A stretch of 64,000 bases of DNA, taken from positions 3,280 through 67,279 of the forward strand of contig JAIERW010000022.1 in NCBI GenBank assembly GCA_019746485.1, given 5' to 3'. The notes under the pieces were generated by a model. It saw only the letters and a program-made list of their open reading frames with translations. It did not search any database and had not been told where the DNA came from. Below are positions 15,371-55,665 of this stretch, piece by piece; the first letter of the stretch is position 1; every line of letters starts with the position of its first letter. The DNA comes from Candidatus Babeliales bacterium. Lineage in GTDB: Bacteria; Babelota; Babeliae; Babelales; RVW-14. The translations under genes were made by a program, and so were the position numbers.

Positions 15371-15500
15371 GCTCGTCCTGACTCTTCGGCAAGTTTACGC
15401 CTACGCCCAGGTGGCTATGGCGCACAGGCAGAGCTAAAGGCTCTTTCCGCCTGCCCTGAGGAAGAACTCTCAGAGTTCTGTCTCGAAGGGTCGAAGGATT
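15371..15500 (+). repeat. Copy of the modular MITE-like repeat (P module and S module)
   Basis: CCTACGCCCAGGTGGCTATGGCGCACAGGCA and CGCCTGCCCTGAGGAA...GTCTCGAAGGGTCGAAGG match the reverse complement of 53045-53162 and the plus strand of 55387-55450. There is an internal perfect hairpin AGAACTC-TCA-GAGTTCT. Confidence 0.7.
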
Positions 15501-15564
15501 TGGGCGGCGCTTTCGTAACCACTAAATTTTACTGGAAAACGTGGGATTGGCTATGTTTTTAATA

Positions 15565-15604: not shown

Positions 15605-15623
15605 TTATTTCTTGAGAAGAAGA

Positions 15624-31174: not shown

Positions 31175-31846
31175 ATGGATACAAATAGTAACAATAAATA
31201 CTCAAGAAAAATAATATCCTGGCAGGATGAAGCAACAATTTCCCGTTTGAAAGAATCTCTTGACCATGACAGTTTGTCAATAGTAGATTCTGATACGGTT
31301 TTGGGTCTTCTTGCCAATCTGAAACAATCAAGTTTTCAGGCATTAAACATCACAAAAGGGGACCGGGGCGATAAGCCGTACTTAATTTTGATTGGCGGTC
31401 TTGACAGGCTGTCACATTTTGTTGATCCGTCAACAATAAACCTGCCATTGCAGCGGATGCTTTTACATTGTTGGCCGGGGCCCGTTACCGTCATTTTTAA
31501 GGCAAAAAGCGGCCTGCCGGTTCATGTGGTGGCCCAAGACGGCACTATTGCGTTACGTTGCCCACTTTTTGACCCACTTTTGCGCCTTTTGGCTCATTTT
31601 GAGGGGTTATTTTCCACCAGTGCTAATAAAAGCGGGTGTCCCGTGCCTGGCAGTTTGAATGAGGTTGACAATGCGTTAATGCAGGCTGTTTCGTGGGCAG
31701 TTATTGACAACCAAAGAGCCTCAGGGCAAACTGGGCAGCCATCAACAATTATTGATTGTTCTGGCAATAAAATTCGTGTGGTTAGAGAGGGTGCATATCC
31801 TGTTGAGGAGCTTGAGCGATACTATGAATCAGCATTTGAAAAATGA
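31175..31846 (+). CDS. tsaC: L-threonylcarbamoyladenylate synthase (TsaC/YrdC/Sua5 family)
   Basis: DSDTVLGLLANL, KGDRGDKPYLILI, WPGPVTVIF, FSTSANKSG and PSTIIDCSGNKIRVVREG. Confidence 0.88.
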   Translation: MDTNSNNKYSRKIISWQDEATISRLKESLDHDSLSIVDSDTVLGLLANLKQSSFQALNITKGDRGDKPYLILIGGLDRLSHFVDPSTINLPLQRMLLHCWPGPVTVIFKAKSGLPVHVVAQDGTIALRCPLFDPLLRLLAHFEGLFSTSANKSGCPVPGSLNEVDNALMQAVSWAVIDNQRASGQTGQPSTIIDCSGNKIRVVREGAYPVEELERYYESAFEK

Positions 31847-32789: not shown

Positions 32790-32817
32790 AAAAAGCTTAA
32801 CAACATCGGGAATAAAC

Positions 32818-33705
32818 ATGATTAAAAAAATTTCAACAGTACTTTCATGTACGCTATTGCTTGCAAATTCAGCGTGGGCAGCAACATTTTCTTTGTCTCC
32901 TGAAGAGCGTGAAAAAATCATAGAGCGCGAACTTGATCGGTGTGAGGGACCGCGCCGTTGGCGCCCGTGGTCAAACGAGGAATATTGTAAGAACATGGCG
33001 CAACCATGGACAGGCAAAACCCCCTTGCATATAGCGATAGAAAAAGGTTACTTAGCAGAGATTCGCACCTTTGCTGCGCAAGGTTACGACCTCAATACTG
33101 CTAATCGGTGGGGTGAAACCTTTTTGCACGATGCAGCGGAGTTGCGCAAATCAGAGGTCTTTGATTTGTTGATTGAGCTTGGTGCTAATCGCTATGTCGG
33201 CGACAAAAAAGGTCGGCTTGCCTGGCCAGAGCGCCAAATGGTGTTGGCGGCACAAGTAGGCGACCTTGAGGTAATGCAGCAGTTGTACGCACCTGGTGCG
33301 AGCCTTGAGGCTTACATGTGGAATTTTCACAATAAAGTTGGGTTGTCCGTGCTACACTTGCTCGTGCTGAGTCGCAACTACGAAGCGTTGCGGTGGGCAT
33401 GCACTGAATTGCGCAGAAAATTCAAATCTCTTAATCCTACGTGTGGGGTTGGCTATGAAAAATGGACGCCGCTTTACTATGCCGAGTATCTGCACGATGA
33501 GCAAGCACAGGAAATTTTGCGTGATTTTAAAGCCCATGTTCGGTATGGGCAGCAGGAAGTGCGTGAAAATGAGCTAGAAGATGATCATGCTCAGCTACCA
33601 CCACATGAAAAATTTGCACTTGGTAGTAGCGTTAAGGCTCTTGAGTCGGTTCCTGGAGGGATTTCTTATAATAGTTCGAGTAACGATGGTTGTTGTATTC
33701 AATAG
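32818..33705 (+). CDS. Secreted ankyrin-repeat protein, type A, ending in the CaaX box CCIQ
   Basis: Signal peptide MIKKISTVLSCTLLLANSAWA. TPLHIAIEKGY. Family motif GRLAWPERQMVLAAQVGDLEVM. The C-terminus is ...SSSNDGCCIQ* (33691-33702). Confidence 0.88.
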   Translation: MIKKISTVLSCTLLLANSAWAATFSLSPEEREKIIERELDRCEGPRRWRPWSNEEYCKNMAQPWTGKTPLHIAIEKGYLAEIRTFAAQGYDLNTANRWGETFLHDAAELRKSEVFDLLIELGANRYVGDKKGRLAWPERQMVLAAQVGDLEVMQQLYAPGASLEAYMWNFHNKVGLSVLHLLVLSRNYEALRWACTELRRKFKSLNPTCGVGYEKWTPLYYAEYLHDEQAQEILRDFKAHVRYGQQEVRENELEDDHAQLPPHEKFALGSSVKALESVPGGISYNSSSNDGCCIQ

Positions 33706-33723
33706 AAAAATATAGGAGTAACT

Positions 33724-34653
33724 ATGATTTCAAAAGTTTCAAAAGTAGTAGCACTTTCTTTATTGCTCGGTAGCCCCGTGTGGGCAGCGTCGAGCAGTTC
33801 ACGAGTGGGTGGGGGCTTGAGCAGCGTGTGCACGTCTGGCGAGAAATGCTTTCTTGCCGTTGAGCGTGGCAATACCACAGCGCTTGCCAAACATTTGCTT
33901 TCGTTACAAATGTCTGCCGATGATGTGCGCAAGCCTCATGGTTCGACATTGCTGCACTGGGCAGTGCTGCATGAACAGCTTGGCGTGATCAAGTGGTTGG
34001 GTGAAAACGGCGATTCTGACTTGGTTAATGCACAAGACAACAAAGGCCGTACCCCCCTGCATCTTGCGGCAAAAAAAAGACAAGTGAGTATCGTCAAGGC
34101 TTTATGGGAGTATTTTGAGGGTGTTGATCTTAACATCCAAGATGAAACTGGTGCAACTCCGGTGCATGGTGCGGTGATGGCAGGGCTCAAAGATACGGTG
34201 CTTTATTTGTGTGAACGTTTTGGGCTTGATGTTGATGTGCGTGATTTTACCGGCTTTACGCCATTGCGCTATGCGACCATAGATCGCTTTGCAAGTATTG
34301 CCGAGCAATTGGCAGTTGTTGATGCACTGATCAAGTGTGGTGCTAACAAAAATGCCTTCAATGCTGCTCCCTATGCTCGTCTGTGCTTTGCAGCGGCTCA
34401 AGGCAATGTGCTAGGCATGAGTGCTGCACTGACAATGGGTGCCGATCTTAACGCACCAGATGCCAAGGGTTGTTCGCCGTTGCATTATGCGGTAATGAGC
34501 AAAAATCTTAATGCAATTGCATTTTTATTAGAACGGCGTGTTCTTATTGACGTAAAAAATAATGCCGGTGAAACGCCATACAACATTGCAGAACAATTGC
34601 AAGATGAGGGTGCAAAGCAGCTTTTGCGGTTTTATTCTGAGCAGTCACGTTAA
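33724..34653 (+). CDS. Secreted ankyrin-repeat protein, type B (no CaaX box)
   Basis: Signal peptide MISKVSKVVALSLLLGSPVWA followed by ASSSS. At least 6 ankyrin repeats (GRTPLHLAAKK, GATPVHGAV, GFTPLRYAT, GCSPLHYAV, GETPYNIA). Confidence 0.88.
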   Translation: MISKVSKVVALSLLLGSPVWAASSSSRVGGGLSSVCTSGEKCFLAVERGNTTALAKHLLSLQMSADDVRKPHGSTLLHWAVLHEQLGVIKWLGENGDSDLVNAQDNKGRTPLHLAAKKRQVSIVKALWEYFEGVDLNIQDETGATPVHGAVMAGLKDTVLYLCERFGLDVDVRDFTGFTPLRYATIDRFASIAEQLAVVDALIKCGANKNAFNAAPYARLCFAAAQGNVLGMSAALTMGADLNAPDAKGCSPLHYAVMSKNLNAIAFLLERRVLIDVKNNAGETPYNIAEQLQDEGAKQLLRFYSEQSR

Positions 34654-34682
34654 CCAAAACTAACTAACAAGGAAAAATATTT

Positions 34683-35561
34683 ATGATAAAAATTACAAAA
34701 GCGTTATTGTGTGTATTGTTGTTGAATGCTGGCCTCTGGGCGGCAAGTTCGTCAAGTTCATTGAGTTTGTCAGATATTTGGGAGGCAAGTTCGTCGAATT
34801 CATTGAGTTTGTCAGAGAGTGAAACAGAAAAGCTTACGGGCGCGATGAAAGAGTTGTCAATCTATGACCGTTACTCTGAAGCGGATAAGTATAGGATTTG
34901 GCAGCAAACGCCTCTTCATACTGCTGCACGCAAGGGTGATATACCTGCCATCATAACCTTAGTTGTTGAGCAAGGAGCATCAATACAGGCAGTTGATTTT
35001 CTGGGTCATACCCCGCTGCATTGTGCTGCTATATATCAGCACAAGCGGCCAGAAGTTTTTGATTTGTTACTTGAGCTGGGTGCCGACCGGTACGCTGTCG
35101 ACAAAGATGGTAAACTTGCTTGGCCAGAAAGGCAAATGTTATTGGCTGCAAAAGCTGGCGACCTTGCGGTGATGGTAAGGCTTTATGAGTACGATGCAAG
35201 CCTTATTGAAGCTCGCGATTTCAGTGTGGTACCAGGAGGCCCGAGTTCAGATGTTTTGCACTATCTTGTATTGAGCCGCAACTACGCGGCTTTGCTTTGG
35301 GCGTGCCAAGAGCTTAAGAAGCGGGGTAAATATTTTTCTTCTTGTGGGAGTCACTGGACCCCGTTGCAATTGGCTGCTGTTTACCAAGATCGGAAAGCAT
35401 GGGATATAGTGCGCCAGTTTGATAATGATTCAAGAACGTCTTGGAATATGGCACATATGGAGCCGTGGTGTGGTAAATATATAACTACGTACTATGCCGA
35501 TGGAGGCGCTGTGACGCGGCCGCGGTATCCGTCCAAGAGCGGTGGATGTTCAATTCAGTAA
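34683..35561 (+). CDS. Secreted ankyrin-repeat protein, type A, ending in the CaaX box CSIQ
   Basis: Signal peptide MIKITKALLCVLLLNAGLWA followed by ASSSSS. GKLAWPERQMLLAAKAGDLAVM. The C-terminus is ...SKSGGCSIQ* (35547-35558). Confidence 0.88.
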   Translation: MIKITKALLCVLLLNAGLWAASSSSSLSLSDIWEASSSNSLSLSESETEKLTGAMKELSIYDRYSEADKYRIWQQTPLHTAARKGDIPAIITLVVEQGASIQAVDFLGHTPLHCAAIYQHKRPEVFDLLLELGADRYAVDKDGKLAWPERQMLLAAKAGDLAVMVRLYEYDASLIEARDFSVVPGGPSSDVLHYLVLSRNYAALLWACQELKKRGKYFSSCGSHWTPLQLAAVYQDRKAWDIVRQFDNDSRTSWNMAHMEPWCGKYITTYYADGGAVTRPRYPSKSGGCSIQ

Positions 35562-35589
35562 AAAAAGCTTATCACGTTCAGGATTAACT

Positions 35590-36657
35590 ATGATTTTAAA
35601 AGTTTCAAAAATATTAGTAGGTGTTTTGTTGCTGGGCAACTCAGTGTGGGCGGCTTCAGGCTCATGGACAAGCAACCTTGATGAGTTTGAGCGTGCACGG
35701 GTAACTGACGAAAAAATGTTTATTGCCGTTGAGTTGGGCAACACAACAAAGCTCGCAGAGTTGCTGCTTTCGTCACAAGCTTCTGCCGGTGACGTGCGCA
35801 ATTACGATGGTGCAACGCTGCTGCACTGGGCGGTACGCCATGGCAAGCTTGATGTTATCGAGTGGTTGCGAAATACCTGTGCGCCAGGTTTTGTAAACGT
35901 GCAAGACAACAAAGGTCGTACAGCATTGCACTATGCAGCAGAAAAAGGGAATGTTGGTGTGGTTAAAGCCTTATGCGAAAACTTTGAGCGCATCAACGTT
36001 AACGCTCAAGATGAGACTGGTGCCACACCCTTGCACGATGCGGCTTTTTTTCGTTCGTCAGCGGCTTTTTGTTGGCTGGTTCAAAACAGAAAAGATATCG
36101 CTTTCAATGCGCAGGACCAAGCAGGTGCCACGCCTTTGCATTATGCGGTGCAAGCGGGACTCAAAGATGCCGTACTTTGTTTGTGTGAACACGGCGATCG
36201 TTTCGGGCTTGATGTTAATGCGCGTGATCTTACCGGTTCCACGCCATTGCACTATGCAACAATAGATCGCTTTAAAGATATTGCTGAGCAATGTGCCGTT
36301 GCTGGTGCACTGATCAAGCGTGGTGCTAACAAAAATGCGCTCAATGTGAAGCGTGAAATGGCACTTGCTCCCCATGCTCGCCTGTGCCTTGCGGCATTTC
36401 TGGGCAATGTTGAAGCAATGAGTGCTGCGCATGCGTTGGGGGCCAATCTTCAGGTACAAGATGCCAAGGGTTGCACGCCGTTGCATTATGCGGTAATGAG
36501 CAAAAATATCTACGCGATGGAATTTTTGTTAGGTCATCGTGTTCAGATTGTGGTAAAAAATAATGCCGGTGCAACGCCAATGAGTATTGCGCAACAGTTG
36601 CAAGATGAAGGTGCCGTGAAGATGCTGAATCTTTTTATCAGGGCGAGCGCGCGTTAA
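35590..36657 (+). CDS. Secreted ankyrin-repeat protein, type B (no CaaX box)
   Basis: Start at MILKVSKILVGVLLLGNSVWA. Collinear with 33724-34653, including FIAVELGNTTKLAELLLSSQASAGDVRNYDGATLLHWAV versus FLAVERGNTTALAKHLLSLQMSADDVRKPHGSTLLHWAV. Confidence 0.85.
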   Translation: MILKVSKILVGVLLLGNSVWAASGSWTSNLDEFERARVTDEKMFIAVELGNTTKLAELLLSSQASAGDVRNYDGATLLHWAVRHGKLDVIEWLRNTCAPGFVNVQDNKGRTALHYAAEKGNVGVVKALCENFERINVNAQDETGATPLHDAAFFRSSAAFCWLVQNRKDIAFNAQDQAGATPLHYAVQAGLKDAVLCLCEHGDRFGLDVNARDLTGSTPLHYATIDRFKDIAEQCAVAGALIKRGANKNALNVKREMALAPHARLCLAAFLGNVEAMSAAHALGANLQVQDAKGCTPLHYAVMSKNIYAMEFLLGHRVQIVVKNNAGATPMSIAQQLQDEGAVKMLNLFIRASAR

Positions 36658-36686
36658 ACAACATTAACTAACGAGGAAAAATAGTT

Positions 36687-37574
36687 ATGATAAAAATTAC
36701 AAAAGTCTTGTTGTGTGCTTTGTTGTTGAATGCTGGTCTTTGGGCTGTTGCGCCGAGCAGTTCGTCAAGAGAAGAAACAGAAGAGCTTGCTGCAGCAGTG
36801 GCTGGGTTGTCCCTTGATGATGCTTCTTGTAACTCTTTGAAGCAAACACTGCTTCATCGTGCGGCCGAACAGGGTAATATACAAGCTATTTACCAGTTGG
36901 TTGTTGAGCAAGGAGCTCCAATGAACGTGGGTGATTGGATGGGTCAGACCCCGCTGCATTATGCGGCTATACGTCAGTATAAGCGGCCAGAGGTGTTTGA
37001 CTTATTGATTGAGTTGGGTGCTGACCGGTACGCGTGCAACAATTGCGGTAAGCTTGCTTGGCCAGAAAGACAAATGCTTTCTGCTGCCGCGTCTGGCAAT
37101 CTTGAAGTTATACAAAGGTTGGTTGACGCAGGTGCTGAATTGGATGTGGATGATGTATTTCAAAATAGGAATCATGTTTTGCACTTTCTTGCGGCGAGTC
37201 GCAATCATGAAGCTTTGCGCTGGGCGTGCCAAGTTATGCGTGACAGCAAGAAAAAATCGGTTGATGTCGAGAATTATGACTGGGTTACGCCGCTGCACGT
37301 AGCTGCATATTATAAAGATAAAGTGGCAATGGAAATATTGATATCGTTTGGTGCCGACAAGTCCAAGTGTGCTCGTGGTGCCTCGTGGGAGAATTATTGG
37401 CACTATCTTGGCGATGAAGTTACGTTTGCCGATGGAGCCAAAGTTAAGGGGCTGCTGCCGCCGCCAACGGTTATTCTCAAGGGTGGTAAATTAAGTAATA
37501 TGACGGCTGATTACCACAATGGCCAAGTTGTACAGTATGGAAATGGTGGTGGTGGTGATTGCGCGCTGTTGTAA
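36687..37574 (+). CDS. Secreted ankyrin-repeat protein, type A, ending in the CaaX box CALL
   Basis: Signal peptide MIKITKVLLCALLLNAGLWA. The leader DNA is nearly identical to that of 34683. GKLAWPERQMLSAAASGNLEVI. The C-terminus is ...GGGGDCALL* (37560-37571). Confidence 0.88.
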   Translation: MIKITKVLLCALLLNAGLWAVAPSSSSREETEELAAAVAGLSLDDASCNSLKQTLLHRAAEQGNIQAIYQLVVEQGAPMNVGDWMGQTPLHYAAIRQYKRPEVFDLLIELGADRYACNNCGKLAWPERQMLSAAASGNLEVIQRLVDAGAELDVDDVFQNRNHVLHFLAASRNHEALRWACQVMRDSKKKSVDVENYDWVTPLHVAAYYKDKVAMEILISFGADKSKCARGASWENYWHYLGDEVTFADGAKVKGLLPPPTVILKGGKLSNMTADYHNGQVVQYGNGGGGDCALL

Positions 37575-37592
37575 ATTAAGATTGGAATAACT

Positions 37593-46900: not shown

Positions 46901-47993
46901 CTACATTGGTTGGTGCGTACGAGCTGGACGATGAACTTGAGCTGGATGAGCTAGATGACGAGCTGGATGATGATGTGACGGCCGTTACCGGTAAACATTC
47001 GTTACAGGCTCTTACCAAGAGCTGAGCAAAGGTTTCAAGTTTTTGAAAGATGGTGTCTTTAAATTTTTGTGCCAACTCGTTGCGGCGCGCGTACTGGCCC
47101 AGCTCGGTGATGAGCAGAGGAACGTTAACTTCTTGTTGTTGGCGTTGTCGTTTTTCACTGCGTGAAGATGGTGCTGACGAGGTGTCGGGAGTCATTTCGT
47201 TACGACCACGTTTAGGCCGAGCGTCATCTGACACTGCTAAAGCAGCAGCTGACGATGAGCTGGAACTTGAACTCGAGCTAGCGCTTGTGGCAGAAGCAGC
47301 GCCAGAGCTTGTGGCAGACGTGGTGCTTGTTGCTGTGGTGGCGCTAGAGCTTGTAGTAGATGCGGCGCCAGTGCTTATGCCAGAAATTGGTTGGTTTTGG
47401 TGTTTGCGGAGAGCATCGATAATGTCATCAATTTTAGCGTCTTTTTTAAATGATTGCTTGGTAACATTTTGTGCTCGTGTTTTGAGGGTACCAAGTTTTT
47501 GTTGTGTGCAGGTTGTGCTCAATTCTTTTAGTTCCACATATTCTTGGTAATCAGTTGTCAGGTTGGCAAAGTGTGGCGATGCTTGTTGAAAGTCAGCATC
47601 ATTCACGAGTGCTCGTACGATGGCGTTAGCACGCGTTCGCTCATCAGCATTTTTGTTCAACTCAAGTGCGTTGAGCATGCTGCCCACGGTGCCGATTGAA
47701 AAAAAGCGACACGGAATATCTTTTTGTGCTGGCGCAAAGCCACCCGGCGTTGCATTAAAAAGCTTTCTGATCAGTTGAACCGTTGCATCGTCAGGGTTAC
47801 CAAAGTGGTACAACTTTTCGATGTAGCGCATTTCAATGCCAAGCGCACCGCAGGCGGGCGACAAGGTAGCTCGATGCTCGGGCTTAAAAATATTCCACGT
47901 GCCTTTAATATCTTTGACATTGCCAGGTTGGGCAATAGTTGCCAAGCCAAGAGCAAATGTGACAACGGTTGAAAGTAAACGTAAAAACTTCAT
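43914..47993 (-). CDS. Giant secreted effector-like protein, paralog 2 of 3. It has two poly-Ser tracts, KRGR/KRQR motifs, a Cys/His domain and an extended HEAT-like repeat region
   Basis: 1359 aa. Signal peptide MKFLRLLSTVVTFALGLATIAQPG. Motifs ADCVETTIRNLCN and RHAYAER. Repeated units of the type D..VR..A..LF..L....Y.PAF.AATQAA. Confidence 0.88.
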   Translation of the reverse strand: MKFLRLLSTVVTFALGLATIAQPGNVKDIKGTWNIFKPEHRATLSPACGALGIEMRYIEKLYHFGNPDDATVQLIRKLFNATPGGFAPAQKDIPCRFFSIGTVGSMLNALELNKNADERTRANAIVRALVNDADFQQASPHFANLTTDYQEYVELKELSTTCTQQKLGTLKTRAQNVTKQSFKKDAKIDDIIDALRKHQNQPISGISTGAASTTSSSATTATSTTSATSSGAASATSASSSSSSSSSSAAALAVSDDARPKRGRNEMTPDTSSAPSSRSEKRQRQQQEVNVPLLITELGQYARRNELAQKFKDTIFQKLETFAQLLVRACNECLPVTAVTSSSSSSSSSSSSSSSSSSYAPTNVDDFVYRPYTAQHALLAFAYKKANAKNDFVPFFKKLDQQFFIDDITFDQTWQNDVYAEDAHVKIHADFITNFAGKSGQEIFATCAGNAFTDVVLTEVRRQLYSQTIPVLPENREAYFETFRVADCVETTIRNLCNVVTYNKETATFGNHVEGLALAPELAAFYSTERNRLESKTDALEVRQDWGNIVQNLPHITYGRAKLPTNNDFYFAAPNDTCGFIKLAGIRASEAHTTDITLSPLDHNGNAIAGGTPHTFEQITVNGSSYVLVGDDYHLFEVMPSIKNIVIMMNQFFNLDLFGAAPGQPSSSSAPAASLEADFFKPDFNSQSFEKLCAKLNWGVEHNVLAQLDNEHIPELRLTLTQGRVAPFTLCIMPGRHAYAERPLNSIPLVAHQKALQQYLCSQIKTKAGACETLLFDLYKSNEVAWGFSGLYRYFTRNLFSGETKSAVINSIIENTRTSLALTSLASQLIKTMPVAADFQAQRSIATHLHMNLDFVKANKNNKQLKEAIAHLAQQTSEQTNYLLQIGVFEKLMTTLIELNMKQELEVCMQLATNNVSNVDRWTREPACKILKALIKGNYQPAFDAATQAAATNATHTDPRVREQAHELFTALFEQGHQKAADAATTCVANNIDHDDEVMRNSMINLVAALLSPPTAREVIEHSAKHYMNHPKGYFRFLALDGFAHLVNKKHQSAFKNALEAAKDNIIYQDCQRDEKTQSFHSPSFAIGNATTKVFSALFAQNFEPAFEAAHKAIKENLCNEKRVIRAWALKLLKKLIQTDYSSKNESVNIYAYELASELAKSRHSVYVNHALVLFQALVKTNYEKAYQDATITATANIQNIDREIQFSVQELFTSLFEKNHQPAFEAATQAATDNISHENTVIQGSGLSLFKNLIKHNYKAAFAPATQAVQTIMQAPPKYSENTLLDLCVELVEKDYEPAIASATTVAEQSDRSFFLSRALKKHKQQTCDDLSQKNSTTSSLSSSSSATSSSTPVTDDE

Positions 47994-48005
47994 GATAACC
48001 TCTTT

Positions 48006-51000
48006 TTAAATCTTGTTAATGCGTATTTTATCAATAATATCCTGTACCAATTCTTTAATTATGGGGTTTGCGTGGTGTGCAAATTTGTTGGCAGCTTCGC
48101 GTGCTGCGGTGAAAGCTACTCTTTCTGCAACGAGTAAGTTGAATATCATAAGTCCATGGCGAATGGTGTTTGGGTTAGTACTGCAAGTAGCTTTTTTTGC
48201 TGCCTGTTCTGCCTGCTCAAACCCAAGGTCTTTCATAATAAATAATGCAAAAATTTCATAAGCAAAGTTTTGAATTTCTGGGTTGGCATGGTGTAAGGTA
48301 TTGTTGGCAGCAAAAAGGATAGTGTTGATGTTTGATAATTGTTTGATAAGCCGTTCTTCTAGCAGTTGATAAACGAGGGACCTAATTTCTGAGTATTCAT
48401 AATTCATATTAAGTATGATAAATTGGTCTGCCAATTTGTAGGCTGGTTCATAATCGTTTTGCATAAGCGCTGAGATAAGGAAAAATTTTTTTCTTATCAT
48501 ACTTCTGGTTGATTGACTCATATTATTTTTTACCAGCTCATGTGCTACATAATACGTTTCTTGATTCTCGCATTTTTTGACAAGTATAAGGGCCGCTTGC
48601 AGAGCAGTATCTATTTTTTCAGGACCGGCTTCTTGTACAAATTTGTAGGCTAAATCAAAACCTTCTGTTTTTTGACAGAGACATTCTAAAAGAATGGTAG
48701 CTTGCATTTGAGTTTGACAGTCGCTATGAGTTAGACTTTCTAGAGCTGCGTGCAAGGCTGGCTCATGTGCTTTGCCTTGTTTAACAAGGCTTTTAAACAG
48801 GTTGAGTGCTTCTAATCTGAGGTCTTCATCATCGCTTGTGCTATAGTGAGAGGCGAGTTGAATAATTCTTTGTAGCTCTTCTTGCATGTTCAGAATTATT
48901 ACTATTTTTGAGAAGCTTTGAAGAAGAATCAATTGATCTTCTGGATCATTTATTTCGTCTAAAGCTTCAAGCGCTGATTTTTGCAGTGCCTTTTTGAGCA
49001 CATTATTATCTTGGTGACTGACGACAAAATTGATGTTTTGGGAGAGGTAGCTAGTAATGCCGTTGTCGTTTTCATCAGTTTGAGTGATGCGCAATGATGT
49101 CATTAATTGACTCGCAAACGAAATAAAATTCGGGTTTATTTCACGAGGTTTGCTTGTCCTAATGATACGGCGTAAAATTGCGAATTTTGTATCATCATCA
49201 AAAAGATTGTGCATAAAAAAGTTGTTGTGTGTATAAAAACTATGTTCTTTGGGGTAAATTCCAAATTTAATGTTGTAATTTTTATACAAATCCAAGAAAA
49301 GCAGTAAGCGTGGGCTTAATGCATCTTCACGTGATGTTAGGCTTGAACAGAGCTTTTGTTGGTAGGAGGTTGGTTTGTATTCAGTATTTAAGCGTTCGGC
49401 ACACGCGTGTATTCCTGGTCTGATATAAATTTCAAAAAACGCTTTGCCTTCTTTGCCTTCATCTTCTTGGCTGAGAGTTTTTTCTAGTTCTAGTGTTTGT
49501 TCTTTGTCTTCTTCGTCTAGCTCATAATCATCATTCAGAACCCATCCGCATGCGGTGCATAGGTCTTTAAAGCGTGGTGAAGTAAATGTTGAGCTAAAAA
49601 AATCATTTGCTATGGAACTTGGTGAAGGTATGCCAAGAAGGTGGTTAGTAATAATTGTAATATTCTTGAGTGATGCTTTAATTTCAAAAAGCTCGTAGTG
49701 GTCGTCTTGGATAAGAATGTATGAATGGTTGTTGATCGTAAGAGTGTTAAACGTATGTGCCGCTTGCTTAGTTACTCTCTGTGTTGCTGAATCGTGTGGA
49801 ATAATTTTGGCAGTCCCGTGTTGAGCATCGCTAGGGACTGTGATATTGTTAAGCTTGATAAAGCCATCTAAGGTATCTGGGCATTCAAAATAAATTGTTG
49901 TGTTGTTAGCAGGTGTTGCTAATTGATAGGTTATATTAGGCAAGTTTTGAATGAGATCGCTCCATTCCTGATGAACTTGTTGCATTCCTGATGTATCTTC
50001 TTTTCTGTTAAGTAGATTGTTTTGAAAAAATGTGTTGAGTTCTGGTGTAAGAGTAAGGCCGTTGGCGTTGCCAGCGGTTCGTGTAGTTTTGTTGTTGGTG
50101 GCAATTCTGCACAGGTTGTTTATGGTATTTTCTACGCAGTTACTAAATTTTATTCCCTTGAAGCAAATTTTTTGATGGCGTGTTAAGCACGGAATAGTTT
50201 TACCGTACAATTGACGTCTTATTTCAGTAAAAACAATATCGGTAAAGTCTGCTGTTGCAAGACTTGCAAAAGCTTCCTCTTCTGATTTTCCGGCTAGGCA
50301 AAGCTCAAGGCTTGCATGAATGTTGGTGTGCTCATCGTCAGCGTACAAATCGCTGTACCAAGCTTGTTCAGGTCGCGAGCCTGAAACAAAGAAGCTTTCA
50401 TTGAGTTGATTAAAGTAATCAGCAAAATTTTCTTTAGAATCTGTTTTTTGATAAATCCAGGCAAGAAGGGCGTGCTGGGCCGTGTAAGGCCGGTACACTA
50501 AGCTATCGTGTAACCTGTAACTTGGTTCTGGTAGTAGTGAAGAAGAAGATAGAGCTGAAAGCCTAATTATATTCGCCGTGTATTGATAGTGGCACTCAGC
50601 ACAAGCGTCAATAAGTAACTGTGTAAAGTCTAGAATGTGTTTATAGATAGGCATTTGTTTGGTGTTAAATTTTTTTGCCAATTGTTCCAACTCTGCGTGC
50701 GGTTTTAAACCTTCAATAATTTGAGGGACTGTGTACGTTTCTTTTTGGCGCTGTCTTTTTGGTACTTTTTCTTTGTGAGGACTTCTTGGTCGTTGTCTTT
50801 TTCTGGAGTAGTCAGTTTCATCATTTTCAGTATCTGAGAAAAAGCTTTGAGAAGACGATGACGAAGATCCGCTGCTTGAAGAAGCACTTGTGTGTTGTGT
50901 GCTGATGTGACTATTTTCTTTTTCAAGAGTTTCTATAATTTTTGCCAACGGAGCTTTTCTTAAGGTTGGGTTATTCAAAAATTCAAGGGCTTTTTGCTTA

Positions 51001-51509
51001 AAGAGACTAAATTTATCATTTGATCGATCCAGCTCTTTCTTGAGCCTGAGGAACCTAACAAAGTCTTTGGCATTTTGAGTAAAAGCTGGATTGTTGAGGT
51101 TTTTTTGAAAGTCTTGATCATTTACCAGAACGTTTATAAGTGGATAAAAAGCCAAGGATAGAGAATTTTTATACGTTTCTAGAACATTCAAAAGCTTGCC
51201 AACAGTTGCTCGAGAAAAATACCGAGCAGGAGAGCTAACTTGCGTTGGTGCAAAGCTGCCAGGCACCACGTGAAACAGTTGCTTAAGTAATTTTATCGTT
51301 GCATGCTCTGGGTTACCAAAGTGATAGAGTTTTTCCAGGTACTTCATTTCAATACCAAGAGCGCCACAGGCTAGCGAGAGCGTGAGGCGGTGTTCAGGCT
51401 TTAAAACGTTGTCGGTACCTTTGAGGTACTGAACATCGTTGGGCTGGGCTGTTGTGCTCAAGCCCAGGGCAAACATAAGAATAGTTGAAAGTAAACGTAA
51501 AAACTTCAT
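48006..51509 (-). CDS. Giant secreted effector-like protein, paralog 1 of 3 (first gene of the operon)
   Basis: 1167 aa. Signal peptide MKFLRLLSTILMFALGLSTTAQP. SSSSGSSSSSS...SRKRQRPRSPHKEKVPKRQRQK. Motifs SNCVENTINNLCR and IHACAER. GGAGG RBS. Confidence 0.88.
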   Translation of the reverse strand: MKFLRLLSTILMFALGLSTTAQPNDVQYLKGTDNVLKPEHRLTLSLACGALGIEMKYLEKLYHFGNPEHATIKLLKQLFHVVPGSFAPTQVSSPARYFSRATVGKLLNVLETYKNSLSLAFYPLINVLVNDQDFQKNLNNPAFTQNAKDFVRFLRLKKELDRSNDKFSLFKQKALEFLNNPTLRKAPLAKIIETLEKENSHISTQHTSASSSSGSSSSSSQSFFSDTENDETDYSRKRQRPRSPHKEKVPKRQRQKETYTVPQIIEGLKPHAELEQLAKKFNTKQMPIYKHILDFTQLLIDACAECHYQYTANIIRLSALSSSSLLPEPSYRLHDSLVYRPYTAQHALLAWIYQKTDSKENFADYFNQLNESFFVSGSRPEQAWYSDLYADDEHTNIHASLELCLAGKSEEEAFASLATADFTDIVFTEIRRQLYGKTIPCLTRHQKICFKGIKFSNCVENTINNLCRIATNNKTTRTAGNANGLTLTPELNTFFQNNLLNRKEDTSGMQQVHQEWSDLIQNLPNITYQLATPANNTTIYFECPDTLDGFIKLNNITVPSDAQHGTAKIIPHDSATQRVTKQAAHTFNTLTINNHSYILIQDDHYELFEIKASLKNITIITNHLLGIPSPSSIANDFFSSTFTSPRFKDLCTACGWVLNDDYELDEEDKEQTLELEKTLSQEDEGKEGKAFFEIYIRPGIHACAERLNTEYKPTSYQQKLCSSLTSREDALSPRLLLFLDLYKNYNIKFGIYPKEHSFYTHNNFFMHNLFDDDTKFAILRRIIRTSKPREINPNFISFASQLMTSLRITQTDENDNGITSYLSQNINFVVSHQDNNVLKKALQKSALEALDEINDPEDQLILLQSFSKIVIILNMQEELQRIIQLASHYSTSDDEDLRLEALNLFKSLVKQGKAHEPALHAALESLTHSDCQTQMQATILLECLCQKTEGFDLAYKFVQEAGPEKIDTALQAALILVKKCENQETYYVAHELVKNNMSQSTRSMIRKKFFLISALMQNDYEPAYKLADQFIILNMNYEYSEIRSLVYQLLEERLIKQLSNINTILFAANNTLHHANPEIQNFAYEIFALFIMKDLGFEQAEQAAKKATCSTNPNTIRHGLMIFNLLVAERVAFTAAREAANKFAHHANPIIKELVQDIIDKIRINKI

Positions 51510-51514: not shown

Positions 51515-51590
51515 CTCCATCCGTCTTCGCTCTATGGCTATGACGTGACTGTGCCGCCCTCGCTTTTTGAGCGTAGACGGGCTTTTTTAA
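51515..51590. repeat. Degenerate fragment of the modular repeat family, in the 5' leader of the giant-protein operon
   Basis: GTCTTCGCTCTATGGCTATGACG...GAGCGTAGACGGGC resembles the P and T modules (GGTGGCTATGGCGC and CTACGCTC). The match is partial. Confidence 0.35.
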
Positions 51591-53044: not shown

Positions 53045-53212
53045 GGGCGCGTCCTTCGAGACGTCTTGCTTCGCCAAGGCTTCGCCAGACTCCTCAGGAT
53101 GAGCGGGCCTATATATCTCATTTAAGAGAGGTGCCTGTCCTCCAAAGCCACCTGGGCGTAGGAGGAGCCTGCCAGCTGAAGCTACAAGCGCTTTAGCGCG
53201 CAGAGCGTAAGC
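53045..53212 (-). repeat. Full composite copy of the modular repeat (T, P and S modules) directly 3' of tRNA-Leu
   Basis: The minus strand reads GCTTACGCTCTGCGCGCTAAAGCGCTTGTAGCTTCAGCTGGCAGGC (T module), CCTACGCCCAGGTGGCTTTGGAGGACAGGCA (P module) and CCGCTCATCCTGAGGA...GTCTCGAAGG (S module). Confidence 0.75.
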
Positions 53213-53299
53213 TGGTGCCGAAGGTCGGACTCGAACCGACACGGTGTCGCCACCGCGGGATTTTGAGTCCCGTGCGTCTACCAATTTCGCCACTTCGGC
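53213..53299 (-). tRNA. tRNA-Leu (anticodon CAA), CCA encoded
   Basis: GCCGAAGTGGCGAAATTGGTAGACGCACGGGACTCAAAATCCCG + long variable arm + GGTTCGAGTCCGACCTTCGGCACCA. I folded the cloverleaf by hand. Confidence 0.92.
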
Positions 53300-53375
53300 A
53301 TGCCCATGTAATTACGCACTATGCTACCAGAATGCTGCATAACGTCAAGAGTTTTGCATGCTTTTTTAAGGTTTT

Positions 53376-54584
53376 TTAAAGTGTGCTGGCCAAATTGAAG
53401 ATTGGTAAATAAATGCTTAGCATCAAAATAGTAATGATTATGCCTACCAGGATAAGCAAAAGTGGGTTTGCAACGACTGTTAAAATATGCAGCGAGCGTG
53501 CTAGTTGTGTTTGCAAGGCAATCAGCATTTTGTCGAGCATGAGTGCCAGCTTGCCTGTTTGTTCGCCGGTTGAAACAAACGCAATAACATCATCAGGAAA
53601 GTAGCGCGTGCCACTTTGTTTAAGCGCTTTTTCAAACGATTTGCCTTGCGTGATAGCGGTGCTTATCAACTCCAGCTGATGCTTAAATTCTCCGTGCTGT
53701 GCGGCTTGTTGAGCAACGGTTAGTGCCTGGCTGAGTGTGGTGCCGCTTTTGAGCAGCATAGAAATCATTTGAAACGAGTAGATCAAGTTTGAGTAGAGCC
53801 ATATTTTACGCACAAACGGTGTGCGTGCTACCAACCAGTCGGTTGCTGTTTTAACGCGTTCAAGTTTGAGCAGTAGGCGCGTGAGCGCTATAAAGCCGGG
53901 AATGCTTAGCCACACCAGCAAGCCTGCCGGTGCGCGCAAAAACGAGCTCAGCGCAATAATGTGCCGTGTGAGTGGTGGCAGCTCTTTGCCGGTGGACGTA
54001 AACAGTTCTTGAAACTGCGGGATAATAAAAATCATGATACAGCCAACAATGAGCAGGGCAAACGTGAGCGTGATGCCGGGCAGCAGGGCTGCTTGCTTGA
54101 GCTTTTTGGTTAGCTGGATGCGCTGCTGCAGGTAGGCAACAATGGTATAAAACGAGTCGGAAAGTTTACCCGCGGCTTGGCCTGCCTTGACGGCGTTGAT
54201 AATAAACGGCGAAAATGCCCCTGTTTGCTCGAGAGCGTGCGAGAAGCTATTGCCGCAGGTTATTTCTTTTATCAGGTGCTGGGCGTGACCCTTGAGCGTT
54301 TGGTTGCTGGTTTGTTTGGCGACCAGTTCAAGCGCGTGTGCAAGATCTATGCCGCTTTCAAGCAGGAGTGCCAATGTTGCAAAAAAGCGTTCTAGTTCTT
54401 GTGGGGCGAGTTTTGTGCGGCTCAAATGCAAAAACGAGAAGAGTGGTTTCTTTTTGGCATACGACAAAAGGGCTATCTGTCGGTCGAGTAGTTCTTTTTT
54501 GAGCGCTTCGGGTGTAACCGCCTCGTGGTAGCCGTGTTGGTTGTTGCCGTGTGCGTCAATGCCTTTCCAAAAAAACGTTGGCAT
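53376..54584 (-). CDS. Type II secretion / type IV pilus inner-membrane platform protein (GspF/PilC family)
   Basis: 402 aa with two repeated T2SS-F-like halves and 3 TM segments. The N-terminus FFWKGIDAHGNNQHGYHEAVTPEALKKELLDRQIALL is typical of PilC/GspF. Confidence 0.85.
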   Translation of the reverse strand: MPTFFWKGIDAHGNNQHGYHEAVTPEALKKELLDRQIALLSYAKKKPLFSFLHLSRTKLAPQELERFFATLALLLESGIDLAHALELVAKQTSNQTLKGHAQHLIKEITCGNSFSHALEQTGAFSPFIINAVKAGQAAGKLSDSFYTIVAYLQQRIQLTKKLKQAALLPGITLTFALLIVGCIMIFIIPQFQELFTSTGKELPPLTRHIIALSSFLRAPAGLLVWLSIPGFIALTRLLLKLERVKTATDWLVARTPFVRKIWLYSNLIYSFQMISMLLKSGTTLSQALTVAQQAAQHGEFKHQLELISTAITQGKSFEKALKQSGTRYFPDDVIAFVSTGEQTGKLALMLDKMLIALQTQLARSLHILTVVANPLLLILVGIIITILMLSIYLPIFNLASTL

Positions 54585-54594
54585 AGCACCCTCG

Positions 54595-54879
54595 CTAAAT
54601 AGTCATTTGCACTTCAAGCCCCAGTTCGAGCAAGATCTCTTCTTTTGAACGTTTGGTATCAATTTTTATTAATTTTGACCGAGAAGTTGCGCCGCGCACA
54701 ATTTCTACGTTGTTTTGTGCTACGTTGAGTTTTTTGCTCAAAAATTTTATCAACTCAGCATTGGCCTTTCCGCTCTCGGGCGCGCTTTTTAAGTAGCATT
54801 TGATTGTGTTGTTTTTGTCATAGTTTAATGCTTGTTTGCCCGCATTTGGGGTTACTTTTATTTCAAGGAGAATGCTCAT
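54595..54879 (-). CDS. yggU: DUF167/YggU-family protein
   Basis: LEIKVTPNAGKQ...LKSAPESGKANAELIKFLSKKL...VEIVRGATSRSKLIKI. Confidence 0.88.
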   Translation of the reverse strand: MSILLEIKVTPNAGKQALNYDKNNTIKCYLKSAPESGKANAELIKFLSKKLNVAQNNVEIVRGATSRSKLIKIDTKRSKEEILLELGLEVQMTI

Positions 54880-55021
54880 AACGTCCCTCTCACTAGCGTT
54901 TTTCGTAAAAAAACAAAAAAAATGATAGACAATTGCGACATTTTTATTATTATTTCATATACTAACTCAAGGTAAGAAGATACAGAAATAGATTGAAATA
55001 CCCAAGATTATAAAATAATAT

Positions 55022-55098
55022 GCGCCCATAGCTCAATTGGATAGAGTATCAGACTACGAATCTGACGGTTAGAGGTTCGAGTCCTCTTGGGCGCACCA
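55022..55098 (+). tRNA. tRNA-Arg (anticodon ACG), CCA encoded
   Basis: GCGCCCA-TA-GCTC-AATTGGATA-GAGT-A-TCAGA-CTACGAA-TCTGA-CGGTT-AGAGG-TTCGAGT-CCTCT-TGGGCGC-A-CCA. Confidence 0.93.
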
Positions 55099-55156
55099 TC
55101 CTACGCTCGGCGTGCTTAGGCACTTGTAGCTTTGGACGGCAGGCTTTTTGTTTTTT
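55099..55156 (+). repeat. tRNA-trailer element (T module) followed by a T-run
   Basis: TCCTACGCTCGGCGTGCTTAGGCACTTGTAGCTTTGGACGGCAGGC, then TTTTTGTTTTTT. Confidence 0.75.
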
Positions 55157-55161
55157 GAGGA

Positions 55162-55253
55162 GGAGAGATGGCTGAGTGGTCGAAAGCGCTTGCCTGCTAA
55201 GCAAGTATCTCGGGAAACCGGGATCGAGGGTTCGAATCCCTCTCTCTCCGCCA
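55162..55253 (+). tRNA. tRNA-Ser (anticodon GCT), CCA encoded
   Basis: GGAGAGATGGCTGAGTGGTCGAAAGCG, anticodon arm CTTGC-CTGCTAA-GCAAG, long variable arm, GAGGGTTCGAATCCCTC, TCTCTCC-G-CCA. Confidence 0.93.
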
Positions 55254-55286
55254 GTCTGCGCCCTACGTGGCTTCGACTGGCAGGCC
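55254..55286 (+). repeat. Shortened tRNA-trailer element (T module lacking the inner hairpin)
   Basis: GTCTGCGCCCTACGTGGCTTCGACTGGCAGGCC. Confidence 0.6.
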
Positions 55287-55342
55287 ATCTTCTTAAATGA
55301 AATACAACAGGTTTTAACTGCAAATAGAAGAAGAGTTAATTC

Positions 55343-55463
55343 CCGTTCGCCCTGATCTCTCGACTTGGCTCGAGACTAAAGGCCCTCCCGCCTGTCCTGA
55401 GGAATCCGGCGTAGCTTTAGCGAAGCGGGATGTCTCGAAGGGTCGAAGGGTCTAAACGAACGG
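55343..55463 (+). repeat. S-module repeat copy bounded by 7-nt inverted repeats (MITE-like)
   Basis: CCGTTCG (55343) ... CGAACGG (55457-55463). Inside are the hairpin TCTCGA-cttggc-TCGAGA and the conserved CCGCCTGTCCTGAGGAA...GTCTCGAAGGGTCGAAGG. Confidence 0.55.
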
Positions 55464-55519
55464 TTCCTGAAATCGAAAATACTTTGAAAACAAATTCTAA
55501 AAAATCACGTTCTTAACGT

Positions 55520-55611
55520 GGAGAGATGGCTGAGTGGTTGAAAGCAACGGTCTTGAAAACCGTCATACCGGGAAACCGGTATCGGGAGTTCGAATCTCCC
55601 TCTCTCCACCA
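55520..55611 (+). tRNA. tRNA-Ser (anticodon TGA), CCA encoded
   Basis: GGAGAGATGGCTGAGTGGTTGAAAGCA, anticodon arm ACGGT-CTTGAAA-ACCGT, long variable arm, GGGAGTTCGAATCTCCC, TCTCTCC-A-CCA. Confidence 0.93.
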
Positions 55612-55665
55612 TCCTACGCTCTGCGTGCTTTGCATTTGTAGCTTCGGATGGCAGGCCATTTTTTA
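55612..55665 (+). repeat. tRNA-trailer element (T module) followed by a T-run
   Basis: TCCTACGCTCTGCGTGCTTTGCATTTGTAGCTTCGGATGGCAGGCC, then ATTTTTT. Confidence 0.75.

What the first reader, a model, noticed from the sequence alone, without database searches (positions are those of the whole stretch)
55099..55665. All four tRNA genes are immediately followed by a conserved ~45-nt trailer element showing stem covariation
**Seen.** The sequence begins directly after the encoded CCA of each tRNA:
- After tRNA-Arg (55099): CCTACGCTCGGC GTGC-ttag-GCAC TTGTAGCTTTGGACGGCAGGC.
- After tRNA-Ser-TGA (55612): CCTACGCTCTGC GTGC-ttt-GCAT TTGTAGCTTCGGATGGCAGGCC.
- After tRNA-Leu (53165-53212, minus strand): CTTACGCTCTGC GCGC-taaa-GCGC TTGTAGCTTCAGCTGGCAGGC.
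- After tRNA-Ser-GCT (55254): a shortened version lacking the inner hairpin.

The inner 4-bp stem changes by compensatory substitutions (GTGC/GCAC, GTGC/GCAT with a G-U pair, GCGC/GCGC). An outer CTAC/GTAG pairing is kept. Two copies are followed by T-runs.

**Inference.** This is a structured RNA element linked to tRNA 3' ends. It could be a processing or termination signal, a tRNA-targeting mobile repeat, or a recombination site. I do not recognise it as a described element.
Basis: seen in the sequence. Interest (0 to 1): 0.65.

Follow-up and report, generated by a model that had tools for sequence, protein, structure and literature searches.

The report
Structured repeat hairpin fused to tRNA 3′ ends
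Every tRNA gene in this Babeliales (Dependentiae) window is followed by a small folded repeat whose basal helix uses the tRNA's own CCA end; it belongs to an undescribed family of dispersed, apparently mobile hairpin repeats also found away from tRNAs and in other phyla.

Summary
All four tRNA genes are followed, with no gap, by a 36-50 nt GC-rich element. The tRNA's CCA plus three variable bases pairs with NNNTGG just before an unpaired CAGGC(C) tail (helix P1). Inside lie an invariant 3-bp helix (P2) and, in the long form, a 4-bp hairpin (P3).

P1 and P3 covary strongly: 99% of cells are paired and 6 of 13 pairs show compensatory changes.

The same architecture follows tRNAs in other Babeliales genomes. 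Between close relatives, copies are present or absent with exact boundaries. They also swap between forms. Copies occur away from tRNAs too: two in this window, one overwriting the end of a miaB gene, and intergenic copies in both orientations in MAGs labelled as other phyla.

No Rfam family, plasmid or phage matches, and no paper on it was found.

Best reading: a REP/MITE-like structured repeat that occupies the tRNA 3′ end and is transcribed as trailer or spacer. It is not a canonical terminator. A dedicated pre-tRNA processing signal remains a live rival.

The parts
55022..55098 (+). tRNA-Arg-ACG. Its encoded CCA (55096-55098) is the first half of the 5' strand of helix P1.
55096..55144 (+). 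Long-form element after tRNA-Arg. P1 is 55096-55101 with 55134-55139 (one A-C mismatch). P2 is 55105-55107 with 55128-55130. P3 is 55112-55115 with 55120-55123. The tail CAGGC is 55140-55144, followed by a T-run.
   Evidence: It is absent, together with the CCA, from the orthologous site in L036.
55162..55253 (+). tRNA-Ser-GCT. It starts 17 nt after the Arg element, with no promoter-like site in between.
55251..55286 (+). Short-form element after tRNA-Ser-GCT. P1 is CCAGTC (55251-55256) with GACTGG (55275-55280). The inner part is TGC-GCC-CTACGT-GGC-TTC. The tail is CAGGCC (55281-55286).
   Evidence: z = -2.3; 39 bits against the long-form model
55520..55611 (+). tRNA-Ser-TGA
55609..55657 (+). 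Long-form element after tRNA-Ser-TGA. P1 is CCATCC (55609-55614) with GGATGG (55646-55651). The tail is CAGGCC (55652-55657), followed by ATTTTTT.
   Evidence: It has 1 change in about 50 nt relative to L049, and that change keeps the pair.
53213..53299 (-). tRNA-Leu-CAA
53167..53215 (-). Long-form element after tRNA-Leu. P1 is CCAGCT with AGCTGG, P3 is GCGC with GCGC, and the tail is CAGGC.
53133..53166 (-). Second, tandem short-form copy directly after the Leu element. Its P1 is TCCTCC with GGAGGA and contains no CCA. The tail is CAGGC.
   Evidence: (I5)
15398..15429 (+). Short-form copy not linked to any tRNA. P1 is CGCC with GGCG and the tail is CACAGGC. It is intergenic and antisense to both flanking genes.
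   Evidence: (I5)
51520..51590 (-). More distant relative: a long hairpin CCGTC-TACGCTC...GAGCGAA-GACGG with no CAGGC tail. It is intergenic.
   Evidence: z = -3.05. Membership is only suggested by the shared TACGCTC motif.

Best explanation
The trailers are copies of a small (about 35-50 nt) GC-rich, structured, dispersed repeat.

Anatomy. Each copy is a stacked hairpin:
- a basal helix P1 (6 bp, consensus CCNNCC/GGNNGG);
- a 3x3 internal loop;
- P2 (GCY/RGC);
- an optional apical hairpin P3;
- an unpaired tail, CAGGC(C).

In Babeliales one subfamily sits exactly at the tRNA 3' end. The tRNA's CCA plus 3 variable nucleotides forms the 5' strand of P1.

How it most likely works (inferred). The unit [CCA NNN ... 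NNN TGG CAGG(C)] is copied or inserted as DNA at the junction between the discriminator base and the CCA of tRNA genes. In that position it is co-transcribed as trailer or inter-tRNA spacer and removed during normal 3' maturation, so it is tolerated. It can bring its own encoded CCA to a gene that lacked one. Hairpin integrity is kept in every copy. The reason is either that the folded single strand is what the unknown propagation machinery recognises, or that an unfolded GC-rich trailer would interfere with pre-tRNA folding.

Shown: the anatomy, the covariation, the tRNA anchoring, the turnover between relatives, and the non-tRNA and cross-phylum copies.

Inferred: the mobility mechanism, transcription of the element, and its removal.
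For: - Structure. On 10 long-form copies from several genomes, 99.2% of cells are paired and 6 of 13 pairs show double changes. Only 0-1 of 500 shuffles reach these values, and slid controls give about 0. Across 18 tRNA-linked copies, the three variable P1 positions give 50 Watson-Crick, 1 G-U and 3 mismatches. Among distinct P1 combinations, 30 of 33 cells pair against 21.9 when shuffled (6 of 20000 shuffles).
- Exact indel. In L036 (80% PilC identity) the site reads gggcgca|CTTTTTT. In the window it reads gggcgca[CCATCC...GGACGGCAGG]CTTTTT. The unit therefore includes the CCA.
- A second filled/empty pair. tRNA-Ser-GGA is filled in L024 and L044 but empty in L043 and L045.
- Form swapping at the same tRNA between close relatives. 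Ser-GCT, Ser-TGA and Leu-CAA each differ among the window, L049 and L036.
- Intragenomic copying. The window's Arg and Ser-TGA copies share the P3 sequence GTGC. The adjacent Lys and Leu-TAG copies in L008 are nearly identical.
- Copies away from tRNA 3' ends. Two lie in the window. One overwrites the last codons of miaB in L013 (new C-terminus ...FAT-ILRS*), while the ortholog in L052 has an empty site. One lies antisense near tRNA-Arg-CCT in L022.
- Cross-phylum copies. A covariance model finds full-length intergenic copies in MAGs labelled Ignavibacteria (at contig ends), WWE3, Doudnabacteria and Chitinophagaceae. They occur in both orientations relative to genes.
- Not a terminator. See, the 17-nt Arg-to-Ser-GCT spacing, and the 18-nt spacing from the Lys element to tRNA-Leu-TAG in L008.
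Against: - No transposase was found. This is a weak negative.
- No consistent target-site duplication. Only tRNA-linked copies show CCA...CCA, and non-tRNA copies show none.
- The pattern of invariant unpaired nucleotides with freely covarying stems is the signature of a selected structure, not of decaying transposon copies.
- tRNA-Ser genes carry some CCA-pairing hairpin in every Babeliales genome sampled, down to 36% PilC identity. This could mean function rather than mobility.
- The Ser-TGA element is more conserved between the window and L049 than its flank. It has 1 change in about 50 nt, against 4 differences (one an indel) in the next 22 nt.
- Copy number per genome could not be measured.
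Confidence: 0.55

Rival explanations
1. A dedicated, selected pre-tRNA 3'-trailer signal of Babeliales. The hairpin that sequesters CCA, together with the CAGGCC tail, directs or times 3'-end maturation. It could position an endonuclease cut after CCA or after N73, or stall 3' exonucleases. The non-tRNA copies would be by-products or would serve mRNAs.
For: - All 20 tRNA-abutting hairpins tabulated are in sense orientation and in exact register with the CCA.
- P1 covaries.
- The loop and tail nucleotides are invariant.
- tRNA-Ser genes keep a CCA-pairing hairpin across the order even when the inner module differs.
- The L036 tRNA-Leu trailer has an unrelated inner hairpin but the same CCAG...CTGG-CAAGCC frame.
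- The element is conserved above its flank.
- G-U pairs outnumber A-C mismatches (3 to 1), as expected for a strand-specific fold.
Against: - The same tRNA has it in one genome and lacks it in a close relative: Arg-ACG, Ser-GGA and Leu-CAA.
- In L039 the 'CCA' of P1 is C71-C72-A73 of a tRNA-Val with no encoded CCA, so P1 would compete with the acceptor stem.
- Copies occur in antisense orientation and in phyla where no tRNA is nearby.
- Published TM6 genomes reportedly lack RNase III (PMC4378268), which removes the obvious double-strand nuclease.
Confidence: 0.27
2. An intrinsic terminator, or an attenuator-like switch. The 3' strand of P1 (for example GGATGG) can instead pair with a downstream CCAT(C)(C) to form a small hairpin followed by a T-run. 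P1 would then act as an anti-terminator.
For: - Some copies have GGATGG-CAGG-CCATC-TTTTT (L042 and L049 Ser-TGA) or GGATGG-CGGG-CCATCC-TTCGTTTTTT (L042 Ser-GCT). L036 tRNA-Leu has CTGG-CAAG-CCAG-TTCTTTT.
- T-rich runs follow many copies.
Against: - The alternative pairing is absent in most CCAG-type copies (L008, L022, window Leu and Arg).
- It does not covary, since the tail stays CCTT or CTCC whatever P1 is.
- The scan calls no canonical terminator on the full hairpin.
- Internal copies sit between co-oriented tRNAs 15-20 nt apart.
Confidence: 0.08
3. Remnants of attachment sites of integrative elements that target tRNA 3' ends, or chance or assembly artefacts.
For: tRNA 3' ends are classical integration sites. 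L022 shows a duplicated 17-nt tRNA 3' end next to a run of N.
Against: - The element does not repeat tRNA sequence beyond CCA.
- The same element follows different tRNAs.
- No integrase or island lies next to the tRNAs in the window.
- The pattern recurs in independent assemblies.
- Its occurrence is far above chance.
Confidence: 0.02

Closest known systems
REP / BIME repetitive extragenic palindromes (GTAG- and CGTC-tagged families; RAYT-associated)
   Same: Both are short, GC-rich, intergenic hairpin repeats with multiple sequence types. Stems vary with compensation, and there is an unpaired conserved tag next to the stem. Occasional copies overwrite gene ends. Some REP families even end in an unpaired CCA tail (PMC3733652).
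   Different: - The tag here is CAGGC(C) at the 3' side. GTAG lies inside an internal loop, not as a head.
- The hairpin is composite, with conserved internal loops.
- The core sequence is shared across MAGs labelled as different phyla.
- No RAYT was found.
- I know of no REP family reported as anchored to tRNA 3' ends; one search gave only excerpts of PMC3733652.
MITE-like elements of intracellular bacteria (Rickettsia palindromic elements, Coxiella MITEs, Neisseria Correia elements)
   Same: Both are small structured repeats in reduced, host-associated genomes. Both insert into intergenic DNA, RNA genes and the ends of coding sequences (compare the miaB case in L013). This comparison rests on my background knowledge; only the abstract of PMC5896051 was seen.
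   Different: Those elements are 100-150 bp or more, with defined terminal inverted repeats and target duplications. None is reported to build its stem from the tRNA CCA.
tRNA-gene-targeting mobile elements of eukaryotes (Ty3, Dictyostelium TRE elements). This is a functional analogy only.
   Same: Both use tRNA genes as a 'safe haven' niche with a precise position relative to the tRNA. This comparison is from background knowledge.
   Different: Those are autonomous retrotransposons guided by Pol III factors. This is a 45-nt bacterial hairpin with no coding capacity.
Ordinary bacterial tRNA 3' trailers and intrinsic terminators
   Same: Both are located directly downstream of the tRNA, often GC-rich hairpins, and sometimes followed by T-runs.
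   Different: Here there are conserved primary-sequence loops and a tail. The CCA is sequestered in the helix. There is a spacer before any T-run, and copies occur between closely spaced co-oriented tRNAs.

Membership tests
REP (repetitive extragenic palindrome) | Short (20-40 nt) imperfect palindrome forming a stem-loop, located in intergenic DNA | tested here: met
   The elements are 36-50 nt stacked hairpins, intergenic or at gene ends. They are more complex than a simple palindrome.
REP (repetitive extragenic palindrome) | Unpaired GTAG or CGTC tetranucleotide head immediately flanking the stem | tested here: not met
   The flanking unpaired tag is CAGGC(C) at the 3' side. GTAG occurs only inside the long form's internal loop and is GTGG in short forms. 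The criterion is taken from PMC3733652.
REP (repetitive extragenic palindrome) | Tens to thousands of copies per genome | not testable with these tools
   Only 64 kb of this genome is held, with 6-7 copies. The complete relative CP064957.1 could be read only in 20-kb pieces.
REP (repetitive extragenic palindrome) | Cognate RAYT (Y1 HUH transposase) gene, typically flanked by REPs | tested here: inconclusive
No whole genome was searched.
MITE | Terminal inverted repeats of conserved sequence, a target-site duplication, and a related autonomous IS | tested here: not met
   The terminal helix P1 varies in sequence between copies. No duplication flanks the non-tRNA copies, and only tRNA-linked copies show CCA...CCA. 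No parent IS was seen.
Intrinsic (Rho-independent) terminator | GC-rich hairpin followed within 0-2 nt by a U-tract | tested here: not met
   A 5-7 nt CAGGC(C) spacer follows the helix and many copies have no T-run. The scan calls no terminator on the full hairpin. The Arg copy lies 17 nt before tRNA-Ser-GCT.
Any Rfam 15 family (including self-cleaving ribozymes and tRNA-like elements) | Covariance-model match | tested here: not met
   No hit on any trailer at E<=1 in the window. No hit on the cross-phylum copies at E<=0.5.
tRNA-targeting integrative element att site | Direct repeat of the tRNA 3' segment bounding an island that carries an integrase | tested here: not met
   No tRNA-derived repeat beyond CCA is present. 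Pfam scans of flanking ORFs show PilC, DUF167, a methyltransferase, a Fic protein, a HIT protein and a hydrolase.

The most novel reading that the evidence does not exclude
This is an unnamed family of CAGGC-tailed structured hairpins shared by MAGs labelled as several phyla. Its Babeliales branch homes to the exact 3' end of tRNA genes, builds its basal helix from the CCA, and can donate an encoded CCA to a CCA-less tRNA gene. That would make it one of two things: a new kind of tRNA-3'-end-targeting mobile DNA, or a lineage-specific RNA signal that governs pre-tRNA 3' maturation in a phylum with a reduced RNase set.
Probability: 0.3. Interest if true: 0.8.

Novelty: new variant of a known kind. 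Interest (0 to 1): 0.62.

Why it matters
If the element is mobile, it would be the first bacterial example I am aware of in which a miniature element uses the universal CCA end of tRNA genes as part of its own structure and as its niche. That offers a handle on how non-autonomous hairpin repeats choose targets. It would also explain why encoded CCA is gained and lost among Babeliales tRNA genes.

If it is a processing signal, it points to an unstudied tRNA 3'-maturation route in Dependentiae, whose published genomes reportedly lack RNase III.

There are also practical consequences:
- The repeats break MAG assemblies; they sit at contig ends in one MAG.
- They create spurious or altered C-termini, as in miaB.
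- They coincide with both ends of a 99.2%-identity block between closely related genomes.
- A covariance model for them would improve annotation of Dependentiae genomes and of the other lineages where copies were found.

Tried and rejected
- Rfam at permissive thresholds gave no match on the window trailers or the cross-phylum copies. This makes known ribozymes, tRNA-like elements and published repeat motifs unlikely.
- The genome-contig scan returned 35 loci. Most are isolated matches, close to the number I expected by chance. The source genome is absent from that collection.
- The metagenome scan with a strict long-form pattern gave one locus only, L039.
- BLAST of the element against plasmid and phage collections gave nothing.
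- Full-text searches for tRNA-trailer or palindrome literature in Dependentiae, and for the literal sequence strings, gave nothing relevant. Searches failed on syntax.
- A loose 'stem + CAGGC' descriptor was far too permissive: 74 hits against 23 in shuffles. I abandoned it in favour of a covariance model.
- The idea that CAGGCC extends pairing into the acceptor stem works only partly, for tRNAs with G73, and not for Arg. Rejected.
- RNase III substrate: unlikely, because TM6 genomes are reported to lack RNase III.
- RNase P minihelix mimic: the tail is CAGG-CCA, not N-CCA, and the helix length does not fit. Rejected by inspection.
- A 3-bp CCA target duplication as a general rule: it is not seen at non-tRNA copies or at the window Arg site.
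- An attempt to extend beyond the window through a terminal ORF returned only short contigs of 1.3-1.7 kb.

Full report
**What is in the window.** The window is bacterial, with 39-46% G+C in 4-kb windows. It encodes PilC/T2SSF, ankyrin-RING proteins and arrays of paralogs. Its PilC is 100% identical to a protein of GCA_019749895.1. That same assembly holds the contig of locus L044, whose DnaX a source names 'Candidatus Babeliales bacterium'. The best DnaX and MiaB homologues of related loci are also named Babeliales, Dependentiae or TM6. The organism is therefore a member of Dependentiae (Babeliales).

ARAGORN finds four tRNAs: Leu-CAA (-), Arg-ACG, Ser-GCT and Ser-TGA. The 3' core motif occurs four times, only at these sites, against 0.09 expected by chance.

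**Anatomy.** The tRNA's CCA plus the next three nucleotides pair with the six nucleotides just before an unpaired CAGGC(C) tail. This helix (P1) reads:
- CCATCC/GGATGG for Ser-TGA;
- CCAGCT/AGCTGG for Leu;
- CCAGTC/GACTGG for Ser-GCT;
- CCATCC/GGACGG, with one A-C mismatch, for Arg.

Inside P1 comes a 3x3 internal loop and then P2. P2 is GCU/AGC in long forms and GCC/GGC in short forms, so it covaries between forms. Long forms then have a 4x4 loop and a 4-bp hairpin, P3. The short form after Ser-GCT has the same frame without P3. It is not needed and is not the predicted fold.

**Relatives and covariation.** One scan of species-representative genomes found the same element right after four tRNAs of a MAG (CAYHBO01): Lys-CTT, Leu-TAG, Arg-TCG and Ser-GGA. 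That MAG is labelled Pseudomonadota, but its DnaX groups with Babeliales. A metagenome scan added a tRNA-Val copy.

On ten long-form copies, 99.2% of cells pair and 6 of 13 pairs show double (compensatory) changes. Between 0 and 1 of 500 shuffles reach the observed values. All slid controls collapse.

I then tabulated 18 tRNA-abutting copies of both forms. The three variable P1 positions give 50 Watson-Crick, 1 G-U and 3 mismatched pairs. Among distinct combinations, 30 of 33 cells pair against 21.9 when shuffled, reached by 6 of 20000 shuffles. The unpaired stretches (UACGCUCUGCG, CUUGUAGCUUC, CAGGCC) are nearly invariant. The fold is therefore real and under constraint, on RNA or on one DNA strand.

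**Turnover.** Synteny (tRNA-Ser-TGA, tRNA-Ser-GCT, tRNA-Arg, DUF167, pilC and, in some genomes, tRNA-Leu) allowed orthologous comparisons.

| tRNA | window | L049 (78-99% nt identity) | L036 (80% PilC identity) |
|---|---|---|---|
| Arg-ACG | long form | identical long form | no element and no encoded CCA |
| Ser-GCT | short, P1 CCAGTC | short variant, P1 CCATAC, tail CACGGCC | same as L049 |
| Ser-TGA | long form | long form | short variant, as its own Ser-GCT |
| Leu-CAA | long form plus a tandem short copy | short, P1 CCAACC | unrelated inner hairpin in the same CCAG...CTGG-CAAGCC frame |

The Arg site gives an exact indel. L036 reads gggcgca|CTTTTTT and the window reads gggcgca[CCATCC...GGACGGCAGG]CTTTTT. 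The unit therefore includes the CCA.

More distant genomes (36-38% PilC identity) keep a CCA-pairing hairpin after both tRNA-Ser genes where these are present. They have none after Arg, and L040 has none after Leu. tRNA-Ser-GGA carries the element in L024 and L044 but not in L043 or L045.

Within genomes, neighbouring or nearby copies are each other's closest relatives. The window's Arg and Ser-TGA copies share the P3 sequence GTGC. The Lys and Leu-TAG copies of L008 are nearly identical. This indicates local copying.

In L039 the 'CCA' of P1 is C71-C72-A73 of a tRNA-Val that has no encoded CCA.

In 11 of the 18 tRNA-linked copies a second CCA follows CAGG. It is missing at the window's Arg site, where the empty site lacks CCA. 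This fits insertion between the discriminator base and the original CCA, but it is not proven.

**Copies away from tRNAs.**
- The window has two short-form copies whose P1 contains no CCA: 15398-15429, antisense to both neighbouring genes, and 53133-53166, in tandem after the Leu copy.
- In L013 a long-form copy overwrites the last codons of miaB. The new C-terminus is ...FAT-ILRS*, whereas the ortholog P0154 ends ...FATVERD*. The orthologous locus L052 has an empty site.
- In L053 the same gene end carries a possible antisense-like, degenerate copy. This was judged by eye only.
- A covariance model built from the long form recovers the short forms. It also finds full-length copies in MAGs labelled Ignavibacteria (at three contig ends), WWE3, Doudnabacteria, Chitinophagaceae and others.
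- These cross-phylum copies share the frame CCNNCC-TTCGC...(T)GTAGCTTC-GGNNGG-CAGGC. They are intergenic, lie in either orientation relative to neighbouring genes, and have no tRNA within 8 kb.

**What it is not.**
- It matches no Rfam family and nothing in the plasmid or phage collections.
- It is not a canonical terminator. The helix is separated from any T-run by the CAGGC(C) tail, and many copies have no T-run.
- The Arg copy lies 17 nt before tRNA-Ser-GCT with no promoter-like site between them. The L008 Lys copy lies 18 nt before tRNA-Leu-TAG.
- It is not an att-site remnant, because no tRNA sequence beyond CCA is repeated.
- It fails the defining 'GTAG/CGTC head' of REP families as described in PMC3733652. 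That paper does note that several REP families end in an unpaired CCA.
- No Y1 transposase was detected in the 482 kb held.

**Interpretation.** The exact filled and empty sites argue for a duplicative, REP/MITE-like structured repeat, as do the module swapping, the local copying, the insertion into a coding end, the antisense copies and the cross-phylum spread. The tRNA 3' end would be a preferred and tolerated niche (confidence 0.55). The element would be transcribed as trailer or spacer and removed during maturation, and it can supply an encoded CCA.

Against a purely selfish view:
- Pairing is essentially perfect in every copy.
- The loop and tail nucleotides are invariant.
- tRNA-Ser genes are occupied throughout the order.
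- The Ser-TGA copy is more conserved than its flank, and its one change keeps the pair (1 change in about 50 nt against 4 differences in the next 22 nt).

A selected role in pre-tRNA 3' maturation therefore remains plausible (0.27). An attenuator-like alternative pairing of the P1 3' strand with a downstream CCAT exists in some copies but does not covary (0.08).

**Novelty.** I found no description of this element, nor of any bacterial repeat that builds its stem from the tRNA CCA. I file it as a new variant of a known kind (small structured dispersed repeats). There is a 0.3 chance that it is something categorically new: a tRNA-3'-end-homing element, or a lineage-specific processing signal.

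**Limits.**
- No complete genome could be censused.
- The tRNA sample outside the window is biased by how the loci were found.
- Transcription of the element is inferred, not observed.

Noticed in passing
window 15440-15500 (+), 53053-53107 (-), 55387-55441 (+): A second GC-rich repeat family (...GCCTGyCCTGAGGA...GTCTCGAAGGGTCGAAGG) lies next to the CAGGC-tailed elements, forming composite repeat blocks downstream of tRNA-Leu and tRNA-Ser-GCT and in the 15335-15623 intergenic region. L036 carries another related family (GCGAAGTrTGCCCTTCGwAGCTCTGTAAGAGCGTAG) after both tRNA-Ser trailers.
   Followed up: partly
window 53199-55300 compared with L049 9288-11386: A 2.1-kb block (tRNA-Leu, pilC, DUF167, tRNA-Arg, tRNA-Ser-GCT) is 99.2% identical to GCA_019749895.1, while flanking DNA is 78-89% identical. 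Both block ends fall in or beside trailer elements. This suggests recent recombination with the repeats at or near the breakpoints.
   Followed up: partly
L036 8990-9064, L042 9467-9541, L022 6618-6691, L039 1157-1231 and 1351-1424: Encoded CCA is variable in Babeliales tRNA genes. Arg-ACG has it in the window, L040, L041 and L049. It lacks it in L036 and L042. Arg-CCT, Asn and Val also lack it.
   Followed up: partly
L005 1-28, L023 1-28, L016 7800-7849: In a MAG labelled Ignavibacteria, the GC-rich version of the repeat sits at three contig ends with identical flanking sequence. It is evidently a multi-copy repeat that breaks the assembly.
   Followed up: partly
L022 6690-6800: A 17-nt copy of the tRNA-Arg-CCT 3' end recurs after an antisense element, immediately before a run of N. 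This is probably a scaffolding artefact, but it mimics a target duplication.
   Followed up: no
L008, L022, L024 (CAYHBO01): This MAG is titled 'uncultured Pseudomonadota', but its DnaX is closest to proteins named Babeliales, Dependentiae or TM6. It is probably mislabelled.
   Followed up: partly
window 1-8967, 31704-38417, 40224-51509: Three tandem arrays of diverged paralogs are present: three ORFs of about 900 aa plus a truncated fourth, seven ORFs of about 300 aa of which four share similar N-termini, and three ORFs of about 1200 aa. An 891-aa ankyrin-repeat protein with a RING finger lies at 15624-18299.
   Followed up: no
window 30872-31703: An 832-nt stretch has no ORF of at least 90 aa in my simple ORF call, although its composition looks like coding sequence. 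It may be a pseudogene.
   Followed up: no
window 55520-55665: In the predicted fold of tRNA-Ser-TGA plus trailer, the tail GGCCAUUUUUU pairs with the tRNA's 5' GAGAGAUGGCU (AUGGC with GCCAU). This competes with the acceptor stem. It is probably an energy-model artefact specific to tRNA-Ser.
   Followed up: no
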